DNA from: Microcoleus sp.
GTDB lineage: Bacteria; Cyanobacteriota; Cyanobacteriia; Cyanobacteriales; Microcoleaceae
DNA length: 64,000 nucleotides
Assembly (NCBI GenBank): GCA_042408215.1
Contig: JAYFMW010000029.1
Coordinates: 64,001 to 128,000 of the forward strand
Direction: 5' to 3'
The translations under genes were made by a program, and so were the position numbers. The number at the start of each line of letters is the position of its first letter. The stretch's first letter is position 1. The notes below the pieces were generated by a model. It searched no databases. It was given only the letters and a program-made list of their open reading frames with translations, and was not told the origin of the DNA. This document shows positions 37,477-44,416 of this stretch, piece by piece.

Positions 37477-40400
37477 TTACCGCAAGCCGGAACAGGTGAA
37501 AGCGGCCCAGTCGGAGGGGTGAGAGAAGGGAAGAGGTTTCTCGATCGCACTTTTGAATTGGTTCTTGGTGCTCCGAAGACGTTCTGCTACCTTTGTGTGT
37601 TGCTTGTATTGGTCATACCAGTTGATATAAGTTTCACTTCCTTTGACTTCGCGATCGCGAGACTCTTTAGCTGCTTTTTTTGCTTTTTCGGCGGCCCTAA
37701 ATTTACTCTCAAGTAATGGTATTAGCTGCTGCTGGTATTCACTGAGTGCTTGACCGCTGAGCGATCGCAACTTATCTTGGGCTTGTTGCAGAGAGACAAT
37801 GCGACTTTTTCCTTGCTGTCGGTATTGGTGGTAAAAAATAGAAAATAGTGCGGTTGCTAAATCGTCAACAGCCCAAAGAGTAGCGATAACACTTCTCGCA
37901 CCAGCACATAAGAAACCAGTGGAAAGAGTCAGAACATCATCTGTTATTTGAGTTACACCAAGATTTGTTTCACAACAAGAAAGGAAAACATCCTCCAAGT
38001 TAGGAAACCTCCAGGCCGGAGTTAGTAATTGCCCTAAAGTAATTGTTCCATCACCTAACAATAGCTTTGATTCTAAAGGATTATCTAAGCGAGATTGGGC
38101 ATGATGACTAGAATGAAGACCGGAAACTTGCTCTACCAAGCGCCGATAATTACTAACAGTTGCTTGAGAGCGACCGCGCAGCCGTCGTTCTTCTGGAATG
38201 CTATATATTTGAGCGAGTTGAGAACATTCAAAACTCACACAAGGTAGGTCTTCAGTTGCATCTTCCACCGTTCCGTACCTCATTTGAACTTTGGTTTGAG
38301 GGCGTTTATGACAAAATTCTAAAACTTGGCAACTGGGAGCATAGCGTAGGAGAAATCTATCTCCGAGGTATTGGTCATTATCAATAGGTAAAGCGCTAAA
38401 GGGAATTGAATGTAGGTAAAGATGAGGTACTACAATCAGTTCTTCAATACCGCTGAGGTGGTGTTCAATTAGTTGTTTCAGATCGAGAGAATTTGCTAAT
38501 TGAGATAGAGTCGATCGCAGAGAGTTTTGCCATTCCGCTTTATTCTGCACGTAGGGAAGTAACCAGCGCTCAAAAATCCAAGTTTGCAACCCTTTGTCTT
38601 GCTCTAAACAAGTATGACAAGTAATTCGATCGCGTTTGATGACAAAGATGTGAGTATTTTGGTAAGTTGTGTAAAAACTCAGGATGGCTGTTGTTTGATG
38701 CTCGATCAATTGCTGAATATGAGCTAAATTAGGGGCTGCGACTTTCATTTCTCCGGCCAATACGGGATCTAAGCGCCTGAGTTGTTCCCAAACTTGTTGT
38801 TTCTGAGCTTCTAATTGAGCGATCGATTCATTAATAGCAGCCAGAGCCGCACGGGAACGGACGCTGAGTTTCACAGTTTTGAATTCTTGCTCAATCTTAG
38901 ATAGCTGAGGATAGCGGTAAGAGTCTATTTGTTGTTGCAAACTGTCATACTGCTGCAAATATGTTTGAATTTCGGGAGAAATTGATTCACCTTGATAAAG
39001 GTCATTGCTTGCGATTAAATCTACGAGGCGTTGGGAGCGCGATCGCTCTACATATTCAATGGCTTTATCTAACTGTTTATTGTTGACGCAAGCCTGTATT
39101 GTATTAGCGTATACCCGAAAAGACGATTCTAAAATTTCCTGCCGCCGCTGTTCGCTACTGCTCCAAGAACGGCTAGTTTCTACTGCTTCAATAGCTTGAT
39201 TGTAACTTTCAATAGCTTTATCCCACTTTTGAGTTGTAAAAGCAATATTTCCGAGGCTTCTTCCTACTCGCAAACAATCGCGGGGAAAGGCTGCGGGAGT
39301 GTAAATTTCCAAAGCTAAATTAAAATGAGCAATAGCTTTTTCAGTTTCTCCTAGCTTTTCATAAGCCGCTCCCAAATTGGTCACAGTCATGGCCCAATCT
39401 TCCGGTAAGGCTTCGCGAGTATTTACTTGTAAAGCTTTTTGATAGCAATCGATGGCTATTTTCAAGTTTTCTTCCCGCACTCCCTTGACTAGACATCTCC
39501 TAAAAAGCTTGTCAATAACAGGCAGGATGCCTGTTCCACAATAATTATGGGAGATGTCTACTCGATGTGCATAAGCATTTCCCAAATTTACTTGTGCGTT
39601 AGCCCAATAATAAGGGTCTAATTCTTGACTGTAGACTTGCAAAGTTGCTTCACAAGAGCGAATAGCTTGCTCTAAGTTCTCGGCTCGATCTCCCGCAGTT
39701 ATTTGCAGATAAGCATGGCTCAAATTTTGTTGGATTTTAGCCCAATTTAAAGGATGTGCTTCACGGGTGTAGACTAATAATGCTGCTTGATAGCACTGAA
39801 TTCCCAGTTCTATATTGGTGGCTGTATCGCCCAGAATTCTGTTACAATAAGCATTGCCTAAATTCATTTGTGTATCTGCCCAAGACTGAGGTGTTCCCTC
39901 ACGAGAATAAACTTGCAATGCACCTTGGTAGCAAGTAATTGCTTGCTCAATATTTTCTGCTCGATCGCCCCGAATTCTGTCAAGATAAGTATTTGCCAGA
40001 TTATTTTGAGTTTGCGCCCACAGTTGAGGCAATGCTTGATGAGTCCGAACTTGTAAAACAGCTTGGTAGTGTTGAATTGCCTGTTCCAAATTGTCCGCAC
40101 GATCGCCTATAATGCGTCTTAGGTAAGCACTACCTAAATTATCTTGAGTTTGGGCCCAGTCGATCGGTAATGCTGAAACAGTCCTGATTTCTAAAGCTGC
40201 TTTGTAGCAGTGAATCGCTTGCTCTAAATTGTCAGCTTTCTCTCCCTTAATTCGTTGACTGTAAGCAACACCTAAATTGTTGTGAATACCCGCCCATAGC
40301 GACGGAGATTCCTGTTTGGTTAAAACTTGTAGAGATGCTTCATAGCAAGTAATAGCTAACTCTATGTTGTGAGCCTGTTTACCCTGAATTCTCCGAAAGT

Positions 40401-41064
40401 AAGCAGCCCCTAAATTCACTTGAGTATTGGCCCATTTATAGGGGAAAGCTTCGCGGGTATTTAGTTGTAAAATAGATTGTAAAATAGCAATCGATTGTTC
40501 TAGATTGTCTGCGGGTTCTCCCAGGCTTCGCTCTTGATAGGCGATCGCTAAATTACCAGATACTCTCGCCCACTGTTCGGGAAAAGCCTCATAAGTAAAG
40601 ATTTGCAGTGCTGCTCGATAACATTGAATTGCTTGCTCTATGTTGTCAGAGACATTGCCGTAAATTCGCTCTTTATAAGCAAGACCCAGATTATTTTGTA
40701 GGTGCGCCCGCATTAGCTGATTTTCAGGCTGGCTTAAAATTGGTAAGGCTGCTTCGTAACCGGCGATCGCAATTTCTAAATTATTCGCCTTGGAGCCTTG
40801 AGGGAATTTTTGAATTGCTTCGGATATTAGAGGAAGAATTGCTGCTAATGTTAAACACTGTTGAAATTCATATTCCTCATAAAACTGATTGACTTTAATT
40901 CGCAAATAGAGAGCAAATTCTTCATTTAATAGCTCTATATTTTCTAGAAATAAGGGGTAAAACAGCTTATCATTTCCTTCACTTTTTGCCGCTACCAGCA
41001 GCAACTTCATTAGAAAATCGAAATAAGCTTGTTGTCGCTGTTCATCATTTTTTTTAGCGCTCAT
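37477..41064 (-). CDS. TPR-repeat CHAT-domain protease
   Basis: About 40-aa repeats (WA..Q.NLG.AY..RI.G.RA.NLEQAI), CHAT dyad HSSHHA and LSCCET, SVIATLWAV, WAAF. Confidence 0.95.
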   Translation of the reverse strand: MSAKKNDEQRQQAYFDFLMKLLLVAAKSEGNDKLFYPLFLENIELLNEEFALYLRIKVNQFYEEYEFQQCLTLAAILPLISEAIQKFPQGSKANNLEIAIAGYEAALPILSQPENQLMRAHLQNNLGLAYKERIYGNVSDNIEQAIQCYRAALQIFTYEAFPEQWARVSGNLAIAYQERSLGEPADNLEQSIAILQSILQLNTREAFPYKWANTQVNLGAAYFRRIQGKQAHNIELAITCYEASLQVLTKQESPSLWAGIHNNLGVAYSQRIKGEKADNLEQAIHCYKAALEIRTVSALPIDWAQTQDNLGSAYLRRIIGDRADNLEQAIQHYQAVLQVRTHQALPQLWAQTQNNLANTYLDRIRGDRAENIEQAITCYQGALQVYSREGTPQSWADTQMNLGNAYCNRILGDTATNIELGIQCYQAALLVYTREAHPLNWAKIQQNLSHAYLQITAGDRAENLEQAIRSCEATLQVYSQELDPYYWANAQVNLGNAYAHRVDISHNYCGTGILPVIDKLFRRCLVKGVREENLKIAIDCYQKALQVNTREALPEDWAMTVTNLGAAYEKLGETEKAIAHFNLALEIYTPAAFPRDCLRVGRSLGNIAFTTQKWDKAIESYNQAIEAVETSRSWSSSEQRRQEILESSFRVYANTIQACVNNKQLDKAIEYVERSRSQRLVDLIASNDLYQGESISPEIQTYLQQYDSLQQQIDSYRYPQLSKIEQEFKTVKLSVRSRAALAAINESIAQLEAQKQQVWEQLRRLDPVLAGEMKVAAPNLAHIQQLIEHQTTAILSFYTTYQNTHIFVIKRDRITCHTCLEQDKGLQTWIFERWLLPYVQNKAEWQNSLRSTLSQLANSLDLKQLIEHHLSGIEELIVVPHLYLHSIPFSALPIDNDQYLGDRFLLRYAPSCQVLEFCHKRPQTKVQMRYGTVEDATEDLPCVSFECSQLAQIYSIPEERRLRGRSQATVSNYRRLVEQVSGLHSSHHAQSRLDNPLESKLLLGDGTITLGQLLTPAWRFPNLEDVFLSCCETNLGVTQITDDVLTLSTGFLCAGARSVIATLWAVDDLATALFSIFYHQYRQQGKSRIVSLQQAQDKLRSLSGQALSEYQQQLIPLLESKFRAAEKAKKAAKESRDREVKGSETYINWYDQYKQHTKVAERLRSTKNQFKSAIEKPLPFSHPSDWAAFTCSGLR
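39491..39559. mobile_element. 69-bp MITE inserted in frame in the CHAT gene
   Basis: AGACATCTCC...GGAGATGTCT termini, ACT duplicated; adds 24 aa. Confidence 0.85.
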
Positions 41065-41115
41065 CGCCGATCGCCTCTATTTCAAATTGCCTGCTTTCTA
41101 GTATTCTCAATTAAC

Positions 41116-41256
41116 CTGTAGGGGCGGGTTCGCCAACCATCTCAAAGCTTGCAGATAAGTTAAATAAACCCGCCCTCCCCCACTTGTAATATCTCGATCG
41201 GGGCGGGTTTATGAGATTTATTATTTGTATTTGAGACTGTTGGCGAACCCGCCCCT
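41116..41256. repeat. GTAG-type REP/REPIN-like double palindrome (IS110 target)
   Basis: CTGTAGGGGCGGGTTCGCCAAC ... GTTGGCGAACCCGCCCCT|ACAG (completed at 42821); inner pair ATAAACCCGCCC/GGGCGGGTTTAT; related copy at 42887-42950. Confidence 0.85.
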
Positions 41257-41300
41257 TGTATCTTAAAAGAGTGAGTCAGTCGATCGCCACGTCATTGATT

Positions 41301-41550
41301 CGATCATACCGACAATCAGGCGATCGTACCGACAATCAGGCGATCGAGCCGACAATCAGGCGATCGAGCCGACAATCAGGCGATCGAGCCGACAATCAGG
41401 CGATCGTACCGACAATCAGGCGATCGAGCCGACAATCAGGCGATCGAGCCGACAATCAGTCGATCAAGCCGACAATCAGTCGATCAAGCCGACAATCAGT
41501 CGATCAAGCCGACAATCAGTCGATCAAGCCGACAATCAGTCGATCGTACC
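41301..41550. repeat. tandem array of 12.5 x 20 bp inside the IS110 left end
   Basis: CGATC(G/A)(AG/TA)CCGACAATCAG(G/T) units with exact 20-bp period. Confidence 0.95.
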
Positions 41551-41599
41551 TTCTTCTTGGTAAATCTAAAGAAACAACAAAAGTTTCTAACTAAGGTGC

Positions 41600-41790
41600 G
41601 AGTTTCAGTAGAAAGTGTTCTTTAAGGACATCAGAAATCGGTGAAGTTGGCCCGCCCCTTAGACTAAACAAGTCTGTTGTGTAGATAAGCTCCCATTACT
41701 GATGACAGGCGCACATAAAACTGGACAGTATCTTAGGCTCTCGACATCGTTGGGAAAGCCTGCATTAACAAGGTTAGTCTTCAATTGCCT
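41600..41790 (+). ncRNA. IS110 bridge RNA
   Basis: Guides CCCGCCCCT (41651-41659), TGTAG (41680-41684), ACAGTATCT (41725-41733) and ACAAG (41768-41772) match the element's target and donor; ends approximate. Confidence 0.88.
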
Positions 41791-41830
41791 GTCGGTTCTT
41801 TCATAAATCGGAGTAGATCAGGAGCAAACA

Positions 41831-42802
41831 ATGACATCAACAGTCTTAGGTATAGACATCAGTAAAAGAGACTTTCATGTCTCATTACTGAAAGAAGGTC
41901 GTGCAACTAAACCCAGAAAGTTTACGAACAATATTCCAGGGTTTGAGAGTTTACATAACTGGCTTCAACAACAAAGTGTAGTCGAACTCCATGTTTGCAT
42001 GGAAGCTACTAGCATTTACGGAGAATCCTTAGCCGAATTCCTTTATGGAGCTGGCTTTCAGGTAAGTATAGTCAATCCAGCTCGTATTAAAGGGTTTGCC
42101 AAAAGCGAACTTTTGAGAACTAAAACTGACTCGGTAGATGCGGCACTAATTGCTCGTTTTTGTGCAGCGATGAAACCGTCTCTATGGACACCAACCGCGC
42201 CGGAAGTCAAAGAATTACAAGCCCTGTTGCGACGGCTCGAATCAGTCACAGAAATGGCAACTCAAGAACACAACCGTCTGGAAACAGCTACACCAACTGT
42301 TGCTGAGCTTACCTTGGCACATTTGGAGTACCTAAAGGAGCAACAAAAACTGATCAAAAAACTGATTAGCGACCATTTTGACCAACACCCACATTTAAAA
42401 CAACAGCGTGATCTCTTGACCTCAATTCCCGGAATTGGTGAACAGACAGCATCCGTATTATTAGCTGAAATTCGTGATGTTTCCGATTACAACAATGCCC
42501 GTCAATTAGCCGCTTATGCAGGTTTAACACCCTGTGAACGCAGTTCTGGGACTTCGGTTAAAGGCAAAACTCGTTTGTCTTGCACTGGCAATGTCCGACT
42601 CCGAAAGGCGTTGTATTTGCCTGCGGTAGTGGCGATGCGTCACAATCCGTTACTCAAGGCTATGAGTGACCGATTATTGGGTCGTGGGAAGGTCAAAATG
42701 CAGGTAATTGGTGCTTTGATGCGGAAATTGGTGCATTTGGCTTTTGGGATTTTAAAGTCCCAAAAGCCTTTCGATCCTAATTATTTACTTGCTACCCCTT
42801 GA
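41831..42802 (+). CDS. IS110 family recombinase (DEDD RuvC-like + Tnp domain)
   Basis: GIDISK, MEATS, KTDSVDA, SIPGIG, AYAGL.P...SSG; AGGAG RBS. Confidence 0.97.
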   Translation: MTSTVLGIDISKRDFHVSLLKEGRATKPRKFTNNIPGFESLHNWLQQQSVVELHVCMEATSIYGESLAEFLYGAGFQVSIVNPARIKGFAKSELLRTKTDSVDAALIARFCAAMKPSLWTPTAPEVKELQALLRRLESVTEMATQEHNRLETATPTVAELTLAHLEYLKEQQKLIKKLISDHFDQHPHLKQQRDLLTSIPGIGEQTASVLLAEIRDVSDYNNARQLAAYAGLTPCERSSGTSVKGKTRLSCTGNVRLRKALYLPAVVAMRHNPLLKAMSDRLLGRGKVKMQVIGALMRKLVHLAFGILKSQKPFDPNYLLATP

Positions 42803-42988
42803 CAGATCAAGACAGTATCTACAGGATGGGTGACAATGATGTTGTCATTCGCTAATTCTGATTCTTCCGGGCTACCTCGCTGTGGTGGGGGCGGGTTTAT
42901 TTAACCTGTCTGCAAGCTTTAAAGCTATTGGTGAACCCGCCCCTACAGGATGGGTGACAATGATGCCGTCAGGTGAATTCTACCCCTT

Positions 42989-44416
42989 TTATGGGGTGTT
43001 CGCTAATTCTAATTCCTCTTCCGATTCATCCCGGACTCTGAAGTAGTAAAAGAGATTCGCAACAGCCAAATCCGAGGCTTTCTTCAAGTTGGACAATACT
43101 AAACTTTTATGACCCGCTACTTCCCCTTGCTTAATGATATAATCTTCATAATTTTTACGTTGCTGCCGATCGAGCATTAATTCCAGTTGAGTGCGAAGCG
43201 CATAAAAATGAGACTTGGGCCGCAAATTTTCATAAAATAACTGTTCGTCTGGTATTGCTAAAGCTGTTGTGGCTGATTTTTTATCCCCAATAACAGCTAA
43301 GTGGGATTCACTAAAATCAGCACTTTGTAACTGTTTTAATTCACTTGGCGGCAAAGCTTTCATCCAGTCAATCTGATTTTGCCAAATGTCTAATGCGGCT
43401 AAATCGTGATTGTGAATCCGTGTGATTTCTGGGAAGATAAAATCTAATTCGTCGTCAGAGTCGCAGCCGGCAATTACTGTTAAGCCATCTTGACGGATTT
43501 GTTGTTGAAGTTGAGAAATGCGATCGCCCGCAGCACCAAATTCATTCTGCACCTGATACGTGCCGATAATACTTTGCTCGATCGCCCAACTGCACTCTAA
43601 CCGTCGCAACTGTCCCGCCGCACAAGTTTCTGACAACAAATGCGGGTTTCTGTATGTTGCTAAAGCCTCAAACAACTTCCCCCGCACTTCAACAATCTCC
43701 GCGTTTCTGAGGTCAATACTTAACCGCAAAGCCGATCCCATTTGTTTAATTGCTCCATTAAATGTCTCGTAAGCCTCCCCTAAAACTAGGCGATGGTGGT
43801 CAAATTTTATATCTGCAACCGCTTCGGCAATTAATTTTTTAATTGCCGCGATTTCCCCTTTCACAACTTTTTCTAAGATGATGAATCCTTTTTCTACTTT
43901 AACGTCTAGCCTCTCTACCGCTTTTTTTAGTTTCAATGTCTGGTGCAAATTCACCGCTGACAAGGCTACCCCGGCGAAAGTTCCGACACCAATGACGGCT
44001 GTTGTCGCTTGCAGCACCCCCATACTGGCTTGGACGGCTTGAAAGCCCATGTGAATTTGCTGCCTCTGCACCTCCAAATCAGCTTCGACGGCTTTAAAGC
44101 CCTTGTGCGTTTGGTGCATCTGGAAGCCGCCCAGGATAAGCTGCATGGGCAATACTAAGGGGGAGAGAGGGCCACTATTGAGGGCCACACCCATAGCATC
44201 AACCAGAAATTGGCTATTATTGACGATCGCGCCAACAGCATGAGCTACAAACTGGCTATTATTGACGGCCGCACCCACAGCATGGGCCGCAAACTGTCCC
44301 GTCGCTGCATCTCTCACCATGCTGAGCGGCACTCCAGCGGAGTTAAACACTTGTATGTACTTACCAGCCTCTATTCCAGCCTGTATCGCTGCGGAAAATA
44401 CAAAGTTCGTCATCAA
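42989..44416 (-). CDS. hypothetical helical protein with a hydrophobic segment and short internal repeats
   Basis: 475-aa ORF; QF.AHAVGA.VNNS repeated about three times; ATTAVIGVGTFAGVALSAVNL. Confidence 0.85.
   Translation of the reverse strand: MMTNFVFSAAIQAGIEAGKYIQVFNSAGVPLSMVRDAATGQFAAHAVGAAVNNSQFVAHAVGAIVNNSQFLVDAMGVALNSGPLSPLVLPMQLILGGFQMHQTHKGFKAVEADLEVQRQQIHMGFQAVQASMGVLQATTAVIGVGTFAGVALSAVNLHQTLKLKKAVERLDVKVEKGFIILEKVVKGEIAAIKKLIAEAVADIKFDHHRLVLGEAYETFNGAIKQMGSALRLSIDLRNAEIVEVRGKLFEALATYRNPHLLSETCAAGQLRRLECSWAIEQSIIGTYQVQNEFGAAGDRISQLQQQIRQDGLTVIAGCDSDDELDFIFPEITRIHNHDLAALDIWQNQIDWMKALPPSELKQLQSADFSESHLAVIGDKKSATTALAIPDEQLFYENLRPKSHFYALRTQLELMLDRQQRKNYEDYIIKQGEVAGHKSLVLSNLKKASDLAVANLFYYFRVRDESEEELELANTP

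What the first reader, a model, noticed from the sequence alone, without database searches (positions are those of the whole stretch)
41248..42947. Complete IS621-like bridge-RNA system programmed against a cyanobacterial REP-like repeat
All four guides can be read off and verified locally. LTG CCCGCCCCT equals the left flank 41248-41256; RTG TGTAG is the reverse complement of core + right flank CTACA; LDG ACAGTATCT equals the right end 42812-42820; RDG ACAAG is the reverse complement of core + left end CTTGT. Circularisation joins TTGACA (42799) to TATCTT (41259) with 18-nt spacing. The donor ACAGTATCTTGTAT matches what I recall for E. coli IS621, while the target loop is reprogrammed to a local GTAG-type repeat. 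Perfect empty targets remain at 41117-41128 (-) and 42936-42947 (+).
Basis: partly seen in the sequence, partly recalled or inferred. Interest (0 to 1): 0.75.

Follow-up and report, generated by a model that had tools for sequence, protein, structure and literature searches.

The report
Cyanobacterial IS621-like bridge-RNA insertion sequence
This is an intact RNA-guided jumping gene of the already known IS110/IS621 kind, sitting in a short repeated hairpin of a Microcoleus-type cyanobacterium, and its own guide RNA spells out both its ends and its landing site; it is a clean example, not a new mechanism.

Summary
Window 41257-42820 (+) is a 1,564-bp IS110-family element: a 574-bp left end, a 323-aa DEDD/serine recombinase (about 45% identical to IS621) and an 18-bp right end, with a CT core at both junctions. 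The left end encodes a bridge RNA (about 41605-41795).

In 52 related elements the guides change together with their own flanks and ends. A close relative carries the same repeat unit unoccupied. The reconstructed circle junction gives TTGACA-18 nt-TATCTT, conserved in 32 of 37 relatives. The 14-base donor is identical to the natural IS621 donor (supplement of PMC11208158).

The 11-mer target CCCGCCCCTAC occurs 189 times in this genome (about 1.7 expected), at the foot of a GC-rich hairpin repeat. I found no RAYT link, so the repeat is only REP-like.

Activity is not shown: one intact copy, and no circle junction in the contigs of four runs.

Verdict: a new member of a known kind, and similar cases have turned up before in this scan. 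Extras worth a note:
- a clade-specific 20-nt tandem array between the junction promoter and the bridge RNA;
- recurrent block changes in the guide loops of relatives;
- fossil left-end 15-mers in repeat doublets.

The parts
41248..41256 (+). Left target half (CCCGCCC) plus CT core (41255-41256), at the 3' foot of REP-like hairpin 41200-41256
   Evidence: sequence. Equals the LTG. The same left junction is seen in 7 of 8 close relatives listed (the eighth lacks upstream DNA). Hairpin fold.
41257..41830 (+). Left end (LE), 574 bp, starting TGTATCTT
   Evidence: IS621's LE is 191 bp (PMC11208160 passage).
41259..41264 (+). -10 half (TATCTT) of the promoter formed only across the circle junction
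   Evidence: TTGACA, 18 nt, TATCTT, 10 of 12. No sigma-70-like site in the linear 41150-42950.
41309..41546 (+). Tandem array, 20-nt unit CCGACAATCAGGCGATCGAG x 11.9, between the junction promoter and the bridge RNA
   Evidence: Arrays of 2.2-18.2 copies lie at the same place in clade relatives.
41605..41795 (+). Bridge RNA gene (approximate ends): 5' stem-loop, target-binding stem-loop (stem 41629-41634 with 41699-41704) and donor-binding stem-loop (stem 41705-41710 with 41787-41792)
   Evidence: Alignment A1 of 52 relatives. Named structure: 83.3% of cells paired against 74.1% in shuffles, and 27 of 32 pairs have changes on both sides.
41651..41659 (+). Left target guide (LTG) CCCGCCCCT
   Evidence: Identical to the left flank 41248-41256. 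Covaries with the flank in relatives.
41680..41686 (+). Right target guide TGTAG (41680-41684) plus AT (41685-41686) at the handshake position
   Evidence: TGTAG is the reverse complement of CTACA (core plus 42821-42823). Right-target positions 1-2 match in 44 of 45 relatives. AT is complementary to donor positions 6-7; the handshake rule comes from PMC11208158.
41725..41733 (+). Left donor guide (LDG) ACAGTATCT
   Evidence: Identical to the right end 42812-42820. The first 7 nt of the LDG equal those of the right end in 40 of 47 relatives, with joint changes in L017, L020 and L102.
41764..41774 (+). Right donor guide ATTAACAAG (ACAAG = 41768-41772) plus GT at the handshake position
   Evidence: ACAAG is the reverse complement of CTTGT (41255-41259). 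Matches in 33 of 41 relatives. L030, read by eye and not part of the 52-row alignment, has both RDG and LE changed.
41831..42802 (+). Recombinase gene, 323 aa (DEDD RuvC-like domain plus serine Tnp domain)
   Evidence: PF01548 at 6e-28 and PF02371 at 7.8e-30. IS621 8wt6 at 1.3e-78 and ISCro4 9t56 at 5.7e-79. D9, E58, D100, D103 and S239 align to IS621 D11, E60, D102, D105 and S241.
42799..42804 (+). -35 half (TTGACA) of the junction promoter, overlapping the stop codon
42803..42820 (+). Right end (18 bp) ending ACAGTAT + CT core (42819-42820)
42821..42841 (+). Right target half and flank (ACAGGATGGGTGACAATGATG)
   Evidence: Identical to 42945-42965, which follows the empty site.
42936..42947 (+). 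Unoccupied perfect target CCCGCCCCTACA at the foot of hairpin 42885-42946
   Evidence: Fold z = -4.13.
41117..41128 (-). Unoccupied perfect target on the minus strand, in a hairpin unit of opposite orientation
   Evidence: Fold z = -3.47.

Best explanation
Window 41257-42820 is an intact member of the IS110 group of the IS110 family, a cyanobacterial relative of IS621. It most likely moves as IS621 does.

Inferred steps:
1. The recombinase excises the element as a circle.
2. In the circle, the right end (…TTGACA…ACAGTAT-CT) meets the left end (TGTATCTT…). This builds a sigma-70-type promoter that reads into the left end.
3. The transcript contains a bridge RNA of about 170-190 nt.
4. Its donor-binding loop pairs with the circle junction ACAGTAT-CT-TGTAT.
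5. Its target-binding loop pairs with CCCGCCC-CT-AC at the 3' foot of a GC-rich hairpin repeat.
6. The recombinase exchanges strands at the CT core.

Shown here from sequence:
- the domains and catalytic residues;
- the exact boundaries;
- the folded two-loop RNA with covariation;
- guide-to-flank and guide-to-end complementarity that covaries across relatives;
- the conserved split promoter;
- an unoccupied orthologous site in a close relative.

Inferred from IS621 biochemistry, not shown here:
- circle formation;
- transcription and the 5' end of the RNA, which here lies about 350 nt behind the -10 box and beyond a tandem array;
- strand exchange;
- present-day activity.
For: Protein:
- Both Pfam domains are present.
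- phmmer against the PDB gives IS621 at 1.3e-78 and ISCro4 at 5.7e-79, gapless over 311 residues. I counted 139 of 311 identical by hand.
- D9, E58, D100, D103 and S239 align with the IS621 residues named in PMC11208158.

Boundaries:
- An in-window paralogous empty site exists.
- L005 sits in a 112-bp tandem repeat whose intact units read CCCGCCCCTACCAAACC.
- In the close relative G402 (left flank 97% identical) the same repeat unit reads GCGAACCCGCCCCTACAGG without the element.

RNA:
- 52 homologous left-end RNAs align.
- The named structure is 83.3% paired against 74.1% in shuffles (0 of 500 shuffles reach it), and at most 42% when slid.
- 27 of 32 pairs have changes on both sides.

Guides:
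- Of 40 elements with a 9-nt LTG and a left junction, the 7 non-core bases equal the flank 7/7 in 31, 6/7 in 7 and 1/7 in 2.
- Across 16 LTG classes the own flank matches 5.9/7 on average, against 2.3/7 across classes.
- Right-target positions 1-2 match in 44 of 45, including four classes that are not AC (GA, AA, CC, AG).
- The first 7 nt of the LDG equal those of the right end in 40 of 47, with joint changes to ACAGCATCT and ACGGTATCT.
- The RDG matches in 33 of 41.

Other:
- Promoter: at least 9 of 12 with a 17-18 nt spacer in 32 of 37 reconstructed junctions.
- Donor: identical to the natural IS621 junction oligo.
- Target: 189 copies in the genome.
- Independent insertions: 21 distinct upstream contexts among 24 elements with the CCCGCCC guide.
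Against: - Only one intact copy exists in a genome with 189 perfect 11-mer targets, two of them within 140 nt of the element.
- No RE-to-LE joint appeared in the contigs of the four runs laid. Contigs cannot show rare forms, so this is silent rather than negative.
- No Rfam family matched the RNA.
- The bridge RNA starts about 350 nt downstream of the junction -10 box. In IS621 the 5' stem-loop follows within about 20-30 nt, as the 100-bp donor oligo shows. How the RNA 5' end is made is therefore unknown.
- No internal sigma-70-like promoter was found.
- Two relatives (L018, L101) have left flanks that do not match their LTG. For L101 my automatic choice of boundary may be wrong.
- To the right of the element the locus differs structurally from the closest relative. 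Only the left side is a clean orthologous empty site.
Confidence: 0.9

Rival explanations
1. The element is a structurally intact but currently silent or immobile copy. It was acquired or inserted once, and it is kept quiet because the promoter exists only in the circle and the long tandem-array leader lies in front of the RNA.
For: - There is a single intact copy despite 189 perfect targets.
- The genome also holds truncated remnants: a piece at C28:148761 with the LE and target-binding loop only, a 19-nt LE stub at C8:287926, and fossil 15-mers.
- No junction was seen in contigs.
- In the clade, 14 of 33 relatives carry at least one guide that no longer matches its own end or flank, so decay is common.
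Against: - The open reading frame is intact and all catalytic residues are in place.
- All four guides are perfect and the split promoter is perfect.
- The site is empty in a 97%-identical relative, so the insertion is evolutionarily recent or polymorphic.
- A 99%-identical recombinase occurs in another Microcoleus genome (L108).
Confidence: 0.35
2. The bridge RNA is made not from the circle-junction promoter but from an unrecognised promoter just upstream of 41605, or by processing of a long leader. The tandem array would then be a spacer or regulator.
For: - About 350 nt, including 11.9 repeats of 20 nt, separate the -10 box from the RNA.
- The array is conserved in position but varies from 2.2 to 18.2 copies.
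- Cyanobacterial promoters often lack a good -35 box (my own knowledge).
Against: - The scan found no sigma-70-like site in the linear element.
- The split junction promoter is conserved in 32 of 37 relatives, which argues that it is used.
Confidence: 0.3
3. The four guide matches are coincidences in a GC-rich repeat context, and the upstream region is an ordinary 5' UTR.
For: The CCCGCCCC motif is very common in this genome, with 623 copies of the 8-mer.
Against: - The matches sit at the homologous loop positions in 52 relatives and change together with flanks and ends in 16 target classes.
- The donor guides match unique, non-repeated ends.
- The structure covaries.
Confidence: 0.01

Closest known systems
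IS621 of Escherichia coli (IS110 family, IS110 group; bridge RNA system: Durrant et al. 2024, PMC11208160; Hiraizumi et al. 2024, PMC11208158)
   Same: - Same two-domain recombinase, with aligned DEDD and Ser catalytic residues.
- Bridge RNA in the left end, with a target loop followed by a donor loop.
[quoted passage not shown]
- CT core, and an 11-bp effective target ending CCTAC.
- The target lies at the foot of a GTAG-headed extragenic hairpin.
- Identical 14-bp donor ACAGTATCTTGTAT.
- The -10 box occupies LE positions 3-8, with the -35 box in the RE.
   Different: - About 45% amino-acid identity, so it is not IS621 by any naming rule.
- The host is a filamentous cyanobacterium.
- The target is CCCGCCCCTAC instead of ATCAGGCCTAC.
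- The LE is 574 bp instead of 191 bp, because a leader containing a tandem array separates the promoter from the RNA.
ISCro4 of Citrobacter rodentium (PDB 9t56; named as an IS110-family recombinase used in human cells in PMC13396178)
   Same: Equally close by phmmer (5.7e-79), with the same domain order.
   Different: It comes from an enterobacterial host. I did not compare its RNA or its ends.
REP-targeting IS110-family elements of Pseudomonas (ISPpu9, PMC12288879; ISPpu10, bioRxiv 10.64898/2026.03.19.712850); I saw only the abstracts in the search listing
   Same: They insert into one conserved repeated extragenic sequence present in many copies.
   Different: Different hosts and targets. 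I did not compare sequences.
IS1111-group elements with a 3' seekRNA (name and paper recalled; also mentioned in earlier scan note e1-7893542)
   Same: RNA-guided DEDD/serine recombinases of the same family.
   Different: In those elements the guide RNA lies downstream of the recombinase gene. Here the RE is only 18 bp and the RNA is upstream.

Membership tests
IS110 family, IS110 group (IS621-like bridge recombinase system) | Recombinase with an N-terminal DEDD RuvC-like domain (PF01548) and a C-terminal Tnp domain (PF02371) | tested here: met
   PF01548 at 6e-28 (residues 6-152) and PF02371 at 7.8e-30 (residues 194-277).
IS110 family, IS110 group (IS621-like bridge recombinase system) | Catalytic D, E, D, D and the conserved serine | tested here: met
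   Gapless alignment to 8wt6. D9, E58, D100, D103 and S239 align with IS621 D11, E60, D102, D105 and S241, as named in PMC11208158. The numbering offset of 2 in the PDB chain is inferred from this fit.
IS110 family, IS110 group (IS621-like bridge recombinase system) | Non-coding RNA encoded in the left end, upstream of the recombinase, folding into a 5' stem-loop and two stem-loops with internal loops | tested here: met
   27 of 32 named pairs have changes on both sides, and 83.3% of cells are paired against at most 42% when slid. The structure was drawn from the window's own row, which favours it. The 5' stem-loop itself was not among the pairs counted.
IS110 family, IS110 group (IS621-like bridge recombinase system) | Target loop and donor loop complementary to target and donor, covarying with them | tested here: met
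   (counts are in the report). The window has all four perfect.
IS110 family, IS110 group (IS621-like bridge recombinase system) | Short core (CT) present at both junctions and in the empty site | tested here: met
   CT at 41255-41256 and 42819-42820. The empty sites read CCCGCCC-CT-ACA.
IS110 family, IS110 group (IS621-like bridge recombinase system) | Promoter reconstituted across the RE-LE junction of the circular form | tested here: met
   In silico only. One search gives 10 of 12 with an 18-nt spacer here, and at least 9 of 12 in 32 of 37 relatives. Transcription was not tested.
IS110 family, IS110 group (IS621-like bridge recombinase system) | Circular intermediate and RNA-dependent recombination | not testable with these tools
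   The contigs of four runs show no RE-to-LE joint, and contigs cannot show rare forms. Needs PCR and a recombination assay.
IS621 itself (same insertion sequence) | Near-identical recombinase and ends | tested here: not met
   About 45% identity (139 of 311, counted by hand). blastn against E. coli genomes found nothing. Only the 14-bp donor is identical.
IS1111 group (seekRNA downstream of the gene) | Guide RNA in the right end, downstream of the recombinase gene | tested here: not met
   The RE is 18 bp (42803-42820) and the RNA is upstream.
REP/RAYT system (bona fide repetitive extragenic palindromes) | Short GC-rich palindrome with a GTAG head, present in hundreds of copies | tested here: met
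   GTAGGGGCGGG is the reverse complement of CCCGCCCCTAC, which occurs 189 times. Hairpin folds give z = -3.5 to -4.1. Tandem and inverted units are seen.
REP/RAYT system (bona fide repetitive extragenic palindromes) | A Y1 (RAYT) transposase gene flanked by the same repeats | tested here: not met
   PF01797 gave 20 matches. I examined 15 of them, and none has CCCGCCCC or GGGGCGGG within 600 nt. The five I left out were weak or fragmentary.
Rfam RNA families | Match to a curated covariance model | tested here: inconclusive
   the only match is a sub-threshold one to P9 (E 0.44), over a REP hairpin outside the element. I do not know whether Rfam 15 holds a bridge RNA model.

The most novel reading that the evidence does not exclude
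In this Microcoleus/Tychonema clade the IS621-type left end has gained a variable-number tandem array. Its 20-nt units each carry CGATCG, and copy number runs from 2 to 18. The array sits exactly between the circle-junction promoter and the bridge RNA. It could be a tunable regulatory leader that sets how much bridge RNA and recombinase a newly formed circle makes, for example through methylation-sensitive or protein-bound sites, or through transcription attenuation. That would be a control layer not described for bridge recombinases.
Probability: 0.15. Interest if true: 0.5.

Novelty: new member of a known kind. Interest (0 to 1): 0.3.

Why it matters
- It extends the experimentally studied IS621 type to filamentous cyanobacteria, with a fully readable set of guides.
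- It shows that the donor 14-mer and the split promoter are conserved at about 45% protein identity. This makes cross-reactivity with IS621 donors directly testable.
- It offers a natural orthologue with a GC-rich target.
- For the biology of the host it is ordinary: one more IS110 element that lives in a host repeat.
- The tandem-array leader, and the many relatives with disrupted guides but intact genes, may say something about how these elements are restrained.

Tried and rejected
- Rfam scan of 40500-43500 at E up to 1: nothing for the element.
- blastn of the element against all complete E. coli genomes: no match, so I could not fetch IS621 DNA that way.
- tblastn against plasmids gave E. 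coli IS110-family genes. L034 is not IS621 (phmmer 2.2e-72). L035 and L036 were set aside on protein length alone (336 and 323 aa). L035 carries ACAGTATCTTGTATG upstream of its gene; I did not follow this.
- The single-sequence fold of 41590-41830 is not more stable than shuffles (z = -0.18). Only the comparative analysis supports the structure.
- RNAalifold alone missed the outer stem of the target loop and proposed a doubtful LDG-RDG pair.
- Sequencing runs: all four runs laid are contigs and show no RE-to-LE joint. The joints listed come from the flanking repeats. A metatranscriptome (X14) has contigs over 41606-41901, one of them with 2 differences in 259 nt. DNA can be present in such libraries, so this is not evidence of transcription.
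- RAYT link: not found.
- Literature: searches for the repeat motif strings returned only unrelated papers among the 15 listed of 51. A search for IS110 + cyanobacteria + bridge RNA returned two papers, judged from title and abstract start to be a general review and an unrelated genome report. I did not read the supplementary tables of PMC11208160, which list thousands of IS110 elements and may include this one.
- The idea that the recurrent guide variants are compensated by changed ends is rejected. All 6 GCGGTATCT copies have the right end ACAGTATCT, and all 5 ACTCTCG/ACTCTTG copies with a left end found have CTTGT.
- Orthologous right flank: not clean. Relative G402 has a 1.66-kb two-gene segment there that is not in this genome.
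Full report
**What is there**

The sequence shows an element bounded on the left by …GGCGAACCCGCCCCT|TGTATCTTAAAAG… and on the right by …CTTGACAGATCAAGACAGTATCT|ACAGGATGGG…. The CT before the left bar is 41255-41256, and the CT before the right bar is 42819-42820.

Between the bars lie three parts:
- a 574-bp left end (41257-41830);
- one open reading frame of 323 aa (41831-42802);
- 18 bp of right end.

A unit 115 bp downstream reads GGTGAACCCGCCCCT-ACAGGATGGGTGACAATGATG (42929-42965). That is the left and right flanks joined, with one CT and without the element. This fixes the boundaries from the window alone.

| Guide | Sequence | Coordinates |
|---|---|---|
| LTG | CCCGCCCCT | 41651-41659 |
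| RTG | TGTAG | 41680-41684 |
| LDG | ACAGTATCT | 41725-41733 |
| RDG | ACAAG | 41768-41772 |

**The protein**

- It carries PF01548 and PF02371.
- phmmer against the PDB finds only ISCro4 (5.7e-79) and IS621 (1.3e-78), aligned without a gap over residues 6-316.
- I counted 139 identical residues of 311 (about 45%) by hand from the IS621 match line.
- D9, E58, D100, D103 and S239 stand opposite the IS621 residues D11, E60, D102, D105 and S241. The structural paper names these as the composite active site (PMC11208158, passages seen).
- N82 and Y262 also correspond to N84 and Y264. The two methionines of the 'wedge' are replaced by L263 and V266. The paper says hydrophobic residues are common at these positions.

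**Relatives**

- The element is single-copy in its own genome.
- A protein search of 401 genomes of the same order found matches at E ≤ 1e-60 in 30 of them.
- A scan of named genome records found 204 relatives and kept 76 loci.
- The close relatives are Microcoleus and Tychonema. More distant ones are Chamaesiphon, Pseudanabaena and Leptolyngbya, a gammaproteobacterial MAG and two Enterobacteriaceae.
- The host is therefore a Microcoleus-type filamentous cyanobacterium. This is an inference from the relatives; the genome itself is unnamed.

**The RNA**

- I aligned 52 distinct left-end stretches (alignment A1).
- RNAalifold recovered the hairpin inside the target loop and three stems of the donor stem-loop. 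18 of its 21 pairs kept pairing through changes on both sides.
- I then named a fuller structure from the window's row: the two outer stems of the target stem-loop, its inner hairpin, and three stems of the donor stem-loop.
- In that structure 83.3% of cells are paired, against 74.1% in 500 shuffles (none of the 500 reaches it) and at most 42% when partners are slid by 1-3 columns. 27 of 32 pairs have changes on both sides.
- The structure was drawn from one of the sequences, which favours it. The slide control and the compensatory pairs still make a conserved fold very likely.
- The single-sequence fold is not informative (z = -0.18), and Rfam has no match.

**Guides against flanks and ends**

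For each aligned element I took the guides from the alignment columns. I then located the junctions independently of the non-core guide bases:
- left junction: a T followed by a TGTAT-like start, preferring one preceded by CT;
- right junction: an ACAGTAT-like end.

Results:

| Comparison | Result |
|---|---|
| LTG (7 non-core bases) against left flank, 40 elements | 7/7 in 31; 6/7 in 7; 1/7 in 2 |
| 16 LTG classes (CCCGCCC, CCCACCC, CGTGTCC, CGTGCCC, ATTATGC, ATTGCCC, ATTACCC, TGACATC, TTTTGTC and others) | own flank 5.9/7 on average; other classes' flanks 2.3/7 |
| RTG against the first two bases after the core | 44 of 45, including GA, AA, CC and AG classes |
| RTG against the third base after the core | 20 of 45 |
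| LDG (first 7 nt) against right end | 40 of 47; joint changes to ACAGCATCT (L017) and ACGGTATCT (L020, L102) |
| RDG against core plus first three LE bases | 33 of 41 |

Further points:
- L018 and L101 are the two LTG misses. For L101 my boundary choice may be wrong.
- Because the third base after the core matches so rarely, the effective target is the 11-mer CCCGCCCCTAC. This parallels the 11-bp natural IS621 target ATCAGGCCTAC (PMC11208160).
- L030, read by eye and not in the 52-row alignment, has both LE (CATATG) and RDG (ATGAG) changed.
- Read as ATTAACAAG, the window's RDG can pair with all seven bases CTTGTAT if two bases bulge out. The bulged position varies freely among relatives (A, C, G or T). 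This fits the published description of nine RNA bases pairing discontiguously with seven donor bases (PMC11208160).
- Among 24 elements with the CCCGCCC guide there are 21 different upstream contexts, so these are many independent insertions into the same motif.

**Donor and promoter**

- The junction that circularisation would form contains ACAGTAT-CT-TGTAT.
- The same 14 bases stand in the '44-bp dDNA_top' oligo of the IS621 structural study (supplement file 3 of PMC11208158). The main text describes this oligo as the RE-LE junction of the natural IS621 element.
- The window's junction gives TTGACA, an 18-nt spacer, then TATCTT, scoring 10 of 12.
- 32 of 37 relatives with both ends found give at least 9 of 12 with a 17-18 nt spacer.
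- The same scan criteria find no such site anywhere in the linear 41150-42950.

**The target repeat**

- CCCGCCCCTAC occurs 189 times in the 7.36-Mb genome, against about 1.7 expected from base composition. The 12-mer ending in A occurs 137 times.
- It forms the 3' foot of a hairpin with arms GGGGCGGGTT…AACCCGCCCC around a loop of about 35-40 nt. Fold z-scores are -3.5 to -4.1. The units often stand in tandem.
- Like the E. coli REP that IS621 uses, its head read on the other strand is GTAG.
- I could not tie it to a RAYT. I examined 15 of the 20 PF01797 matches, and none has the motif within 600 nt. 'REP-like' is the right word.

**Age and activity**

- In G402 the left flank is 97% identical, and the same hairpin unit reads …GCGAACCCGCCCCTACAGGAATT… without the element. 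The insertion is therefore polymorphic among close relatives.
- To the right, G402 has a 1.66-kb segment with two open frames that this genome lacks. The locus has been rearranged, and only the left side is a clean comparison.
- Fragments and full copies of the element are spread through many genomes of the genus.
- Several assemblies hold it as a stand-alone contig of about 1.5 kb whose title states a coverage of 145 to 631 (L038, L040, L041), against about 50 in the title of a long contig of another strain. I read this as a hint that it is multi-copy there. I did not compare coverage within one assembly.
- In the window's genome I found no second intact copy.
- The contigs of four public runs show no RE-to-LE joint. 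This does not exclude rare circles.

**What is unusual**

1. The tandem array.
   - The left end is three times as long as that of IS621. A 20-nt tandem array (11.9 copies, 41309-41546) and its surroundings separate the -10 box from the RNA.
   - The array is present at the same place in clade relatives, with 2.2 to 18.2 copies. Related 18- or 23-nt arrays occur in slightly more distant relatives. It is missing from the relatives whose LE is 242-275 bp.
   - The open frame 41256-41594 listed is produced by this repeat, and I do not take it for a gene.
2. Disrupted guides in relatives.
   - In the clade, 14 of 33 relatives carry at least one guide that no longer matches its own end or flank.
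   - Only 11 of the 22 that are testable at all four guides are perfect. The window's copy is one of them.
   - The departures are recurrent short blocks, not scattered point changes: GCGGTATCT for ACAGTATCT, ACTCTCG or ACTCTTG for ACAAGG, CCCGCCCCGAGTGAC for CCCGCCCCTTAGAC, and GCGGAC for GCTCCC.
   - They are not compensated in the ends.
3. Relics in this genome.
   - A 19-nt LE stub lies at C8:287926.
   - At least ten repeat doublets read CCCGCCCCT|TGTATCTTRAAAGAG|GTAGATTGCGATTTACCG….
   - The AAAGAG part also precedes such repeat units where no TGTATCTT is present. One possible origin is therefore loss of the element by deletion between AAAGAG in the LE and AAAGAG before a downstream repeat unit. 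I could not settle this.

**Verdict**

The system is an IS621-like bridge-RNA insertion sequence, a new member of a known kind. Notes of this scan describe similar REP-homing IS110 elements in other genomes. Two searches of the paper library brought up no description of this cyanobacterial element or its target repeat among the papers listed. I did not read the large supplementary element lists of PMC11208160.

Noticed in passing
window 41309-41546; relatives L005, L007, L038, L040, L045, L067 and others (LE positions about 25-410): A 20-nt tandem array with a CGATCG core lies between the junction -10 box and the bridge RNA. Copy number runs from 2.2 to 18.2 between copies of the same IS clade. 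The array is absent from relatives whose left end is 242-275 bp, and IS621's left end is only 191 bp.
   Followed up: partly
Relatives L005, L051, L088, L076, L049, L099, L077, L092, L061, L013 (RDG); L006, L065, L105, L058, L048, L111, L063, L061, L069 (LDG); L087, L062, L075 (LTG): Recurrent short block replacements inside the guide loops: ACTCTCG or ACTCTTG for ACAAGG, GCGGTATCT for ACAGTATCT, and CCCGCCCCGAGTGAC for CCCGCCCCTTAGAC. Wherever an end could be found it is unchanged (6 LDG-variant and 5 RDG-variant copies), so these copies have guides that do not match their own ends.
   Followed up: partly
G000:C30:529950, C28:217483, C20:118180, C21:25439, C6:699592, C6:917448, C10:166489, C21:47071, C6:498185, C30:269377: Repeat doublets whose junction reads CCCGCCCCT + the first 15 nt of the IS left end (TGTATCTTRAAAGAG) + GTAGATTGCGATTTACCG…. 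They look like fossil left junctions. At the orthologous C30 site two relatives have the same doublet, one has a single unit, and one has ACTATCTTGAAAGAG instead.
   Followed up: partly
G000:C28:148761 (-), locus L002: A truncated second copy in the same target. It has the left end with a three-unit array, the 5' stem-loop and an intact target-binding loop, then breaks off after …GCTCCCATTA, directly in front of a host open frame.
   Followed up: partly
G402:C45 (locus L151), between the two repeat units that flank the IS in the window: The closest relative has a 1.66-kb segment with two minus-strand open frames (231 and 258 aa) where this genome has the IS plus 48 bp. The segment is not elsewhere in G000, apart from a repeat of about 106 bp within it.
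   Followed up: partly
L035 (E. coli plasmid NZ_CP127301.1), locus positions 378-392: The full donor-like string ACAGTATCTTGTATG stands about 200 bp upstream of a 336-aa IS110-family gene, as if a right-end remnant or a tandem junction preceded the element.
   Followed up: no
window 37477-41064 (-) and 42989-44416 (-): The element sits in a repeat-filled spacer between two minus-strand genes. The upstream one is a 1,195-aa protein with many repeated 'NLG.AY'-type units, which look TPR-like by eye; I did not scan it.
   Followed up: no
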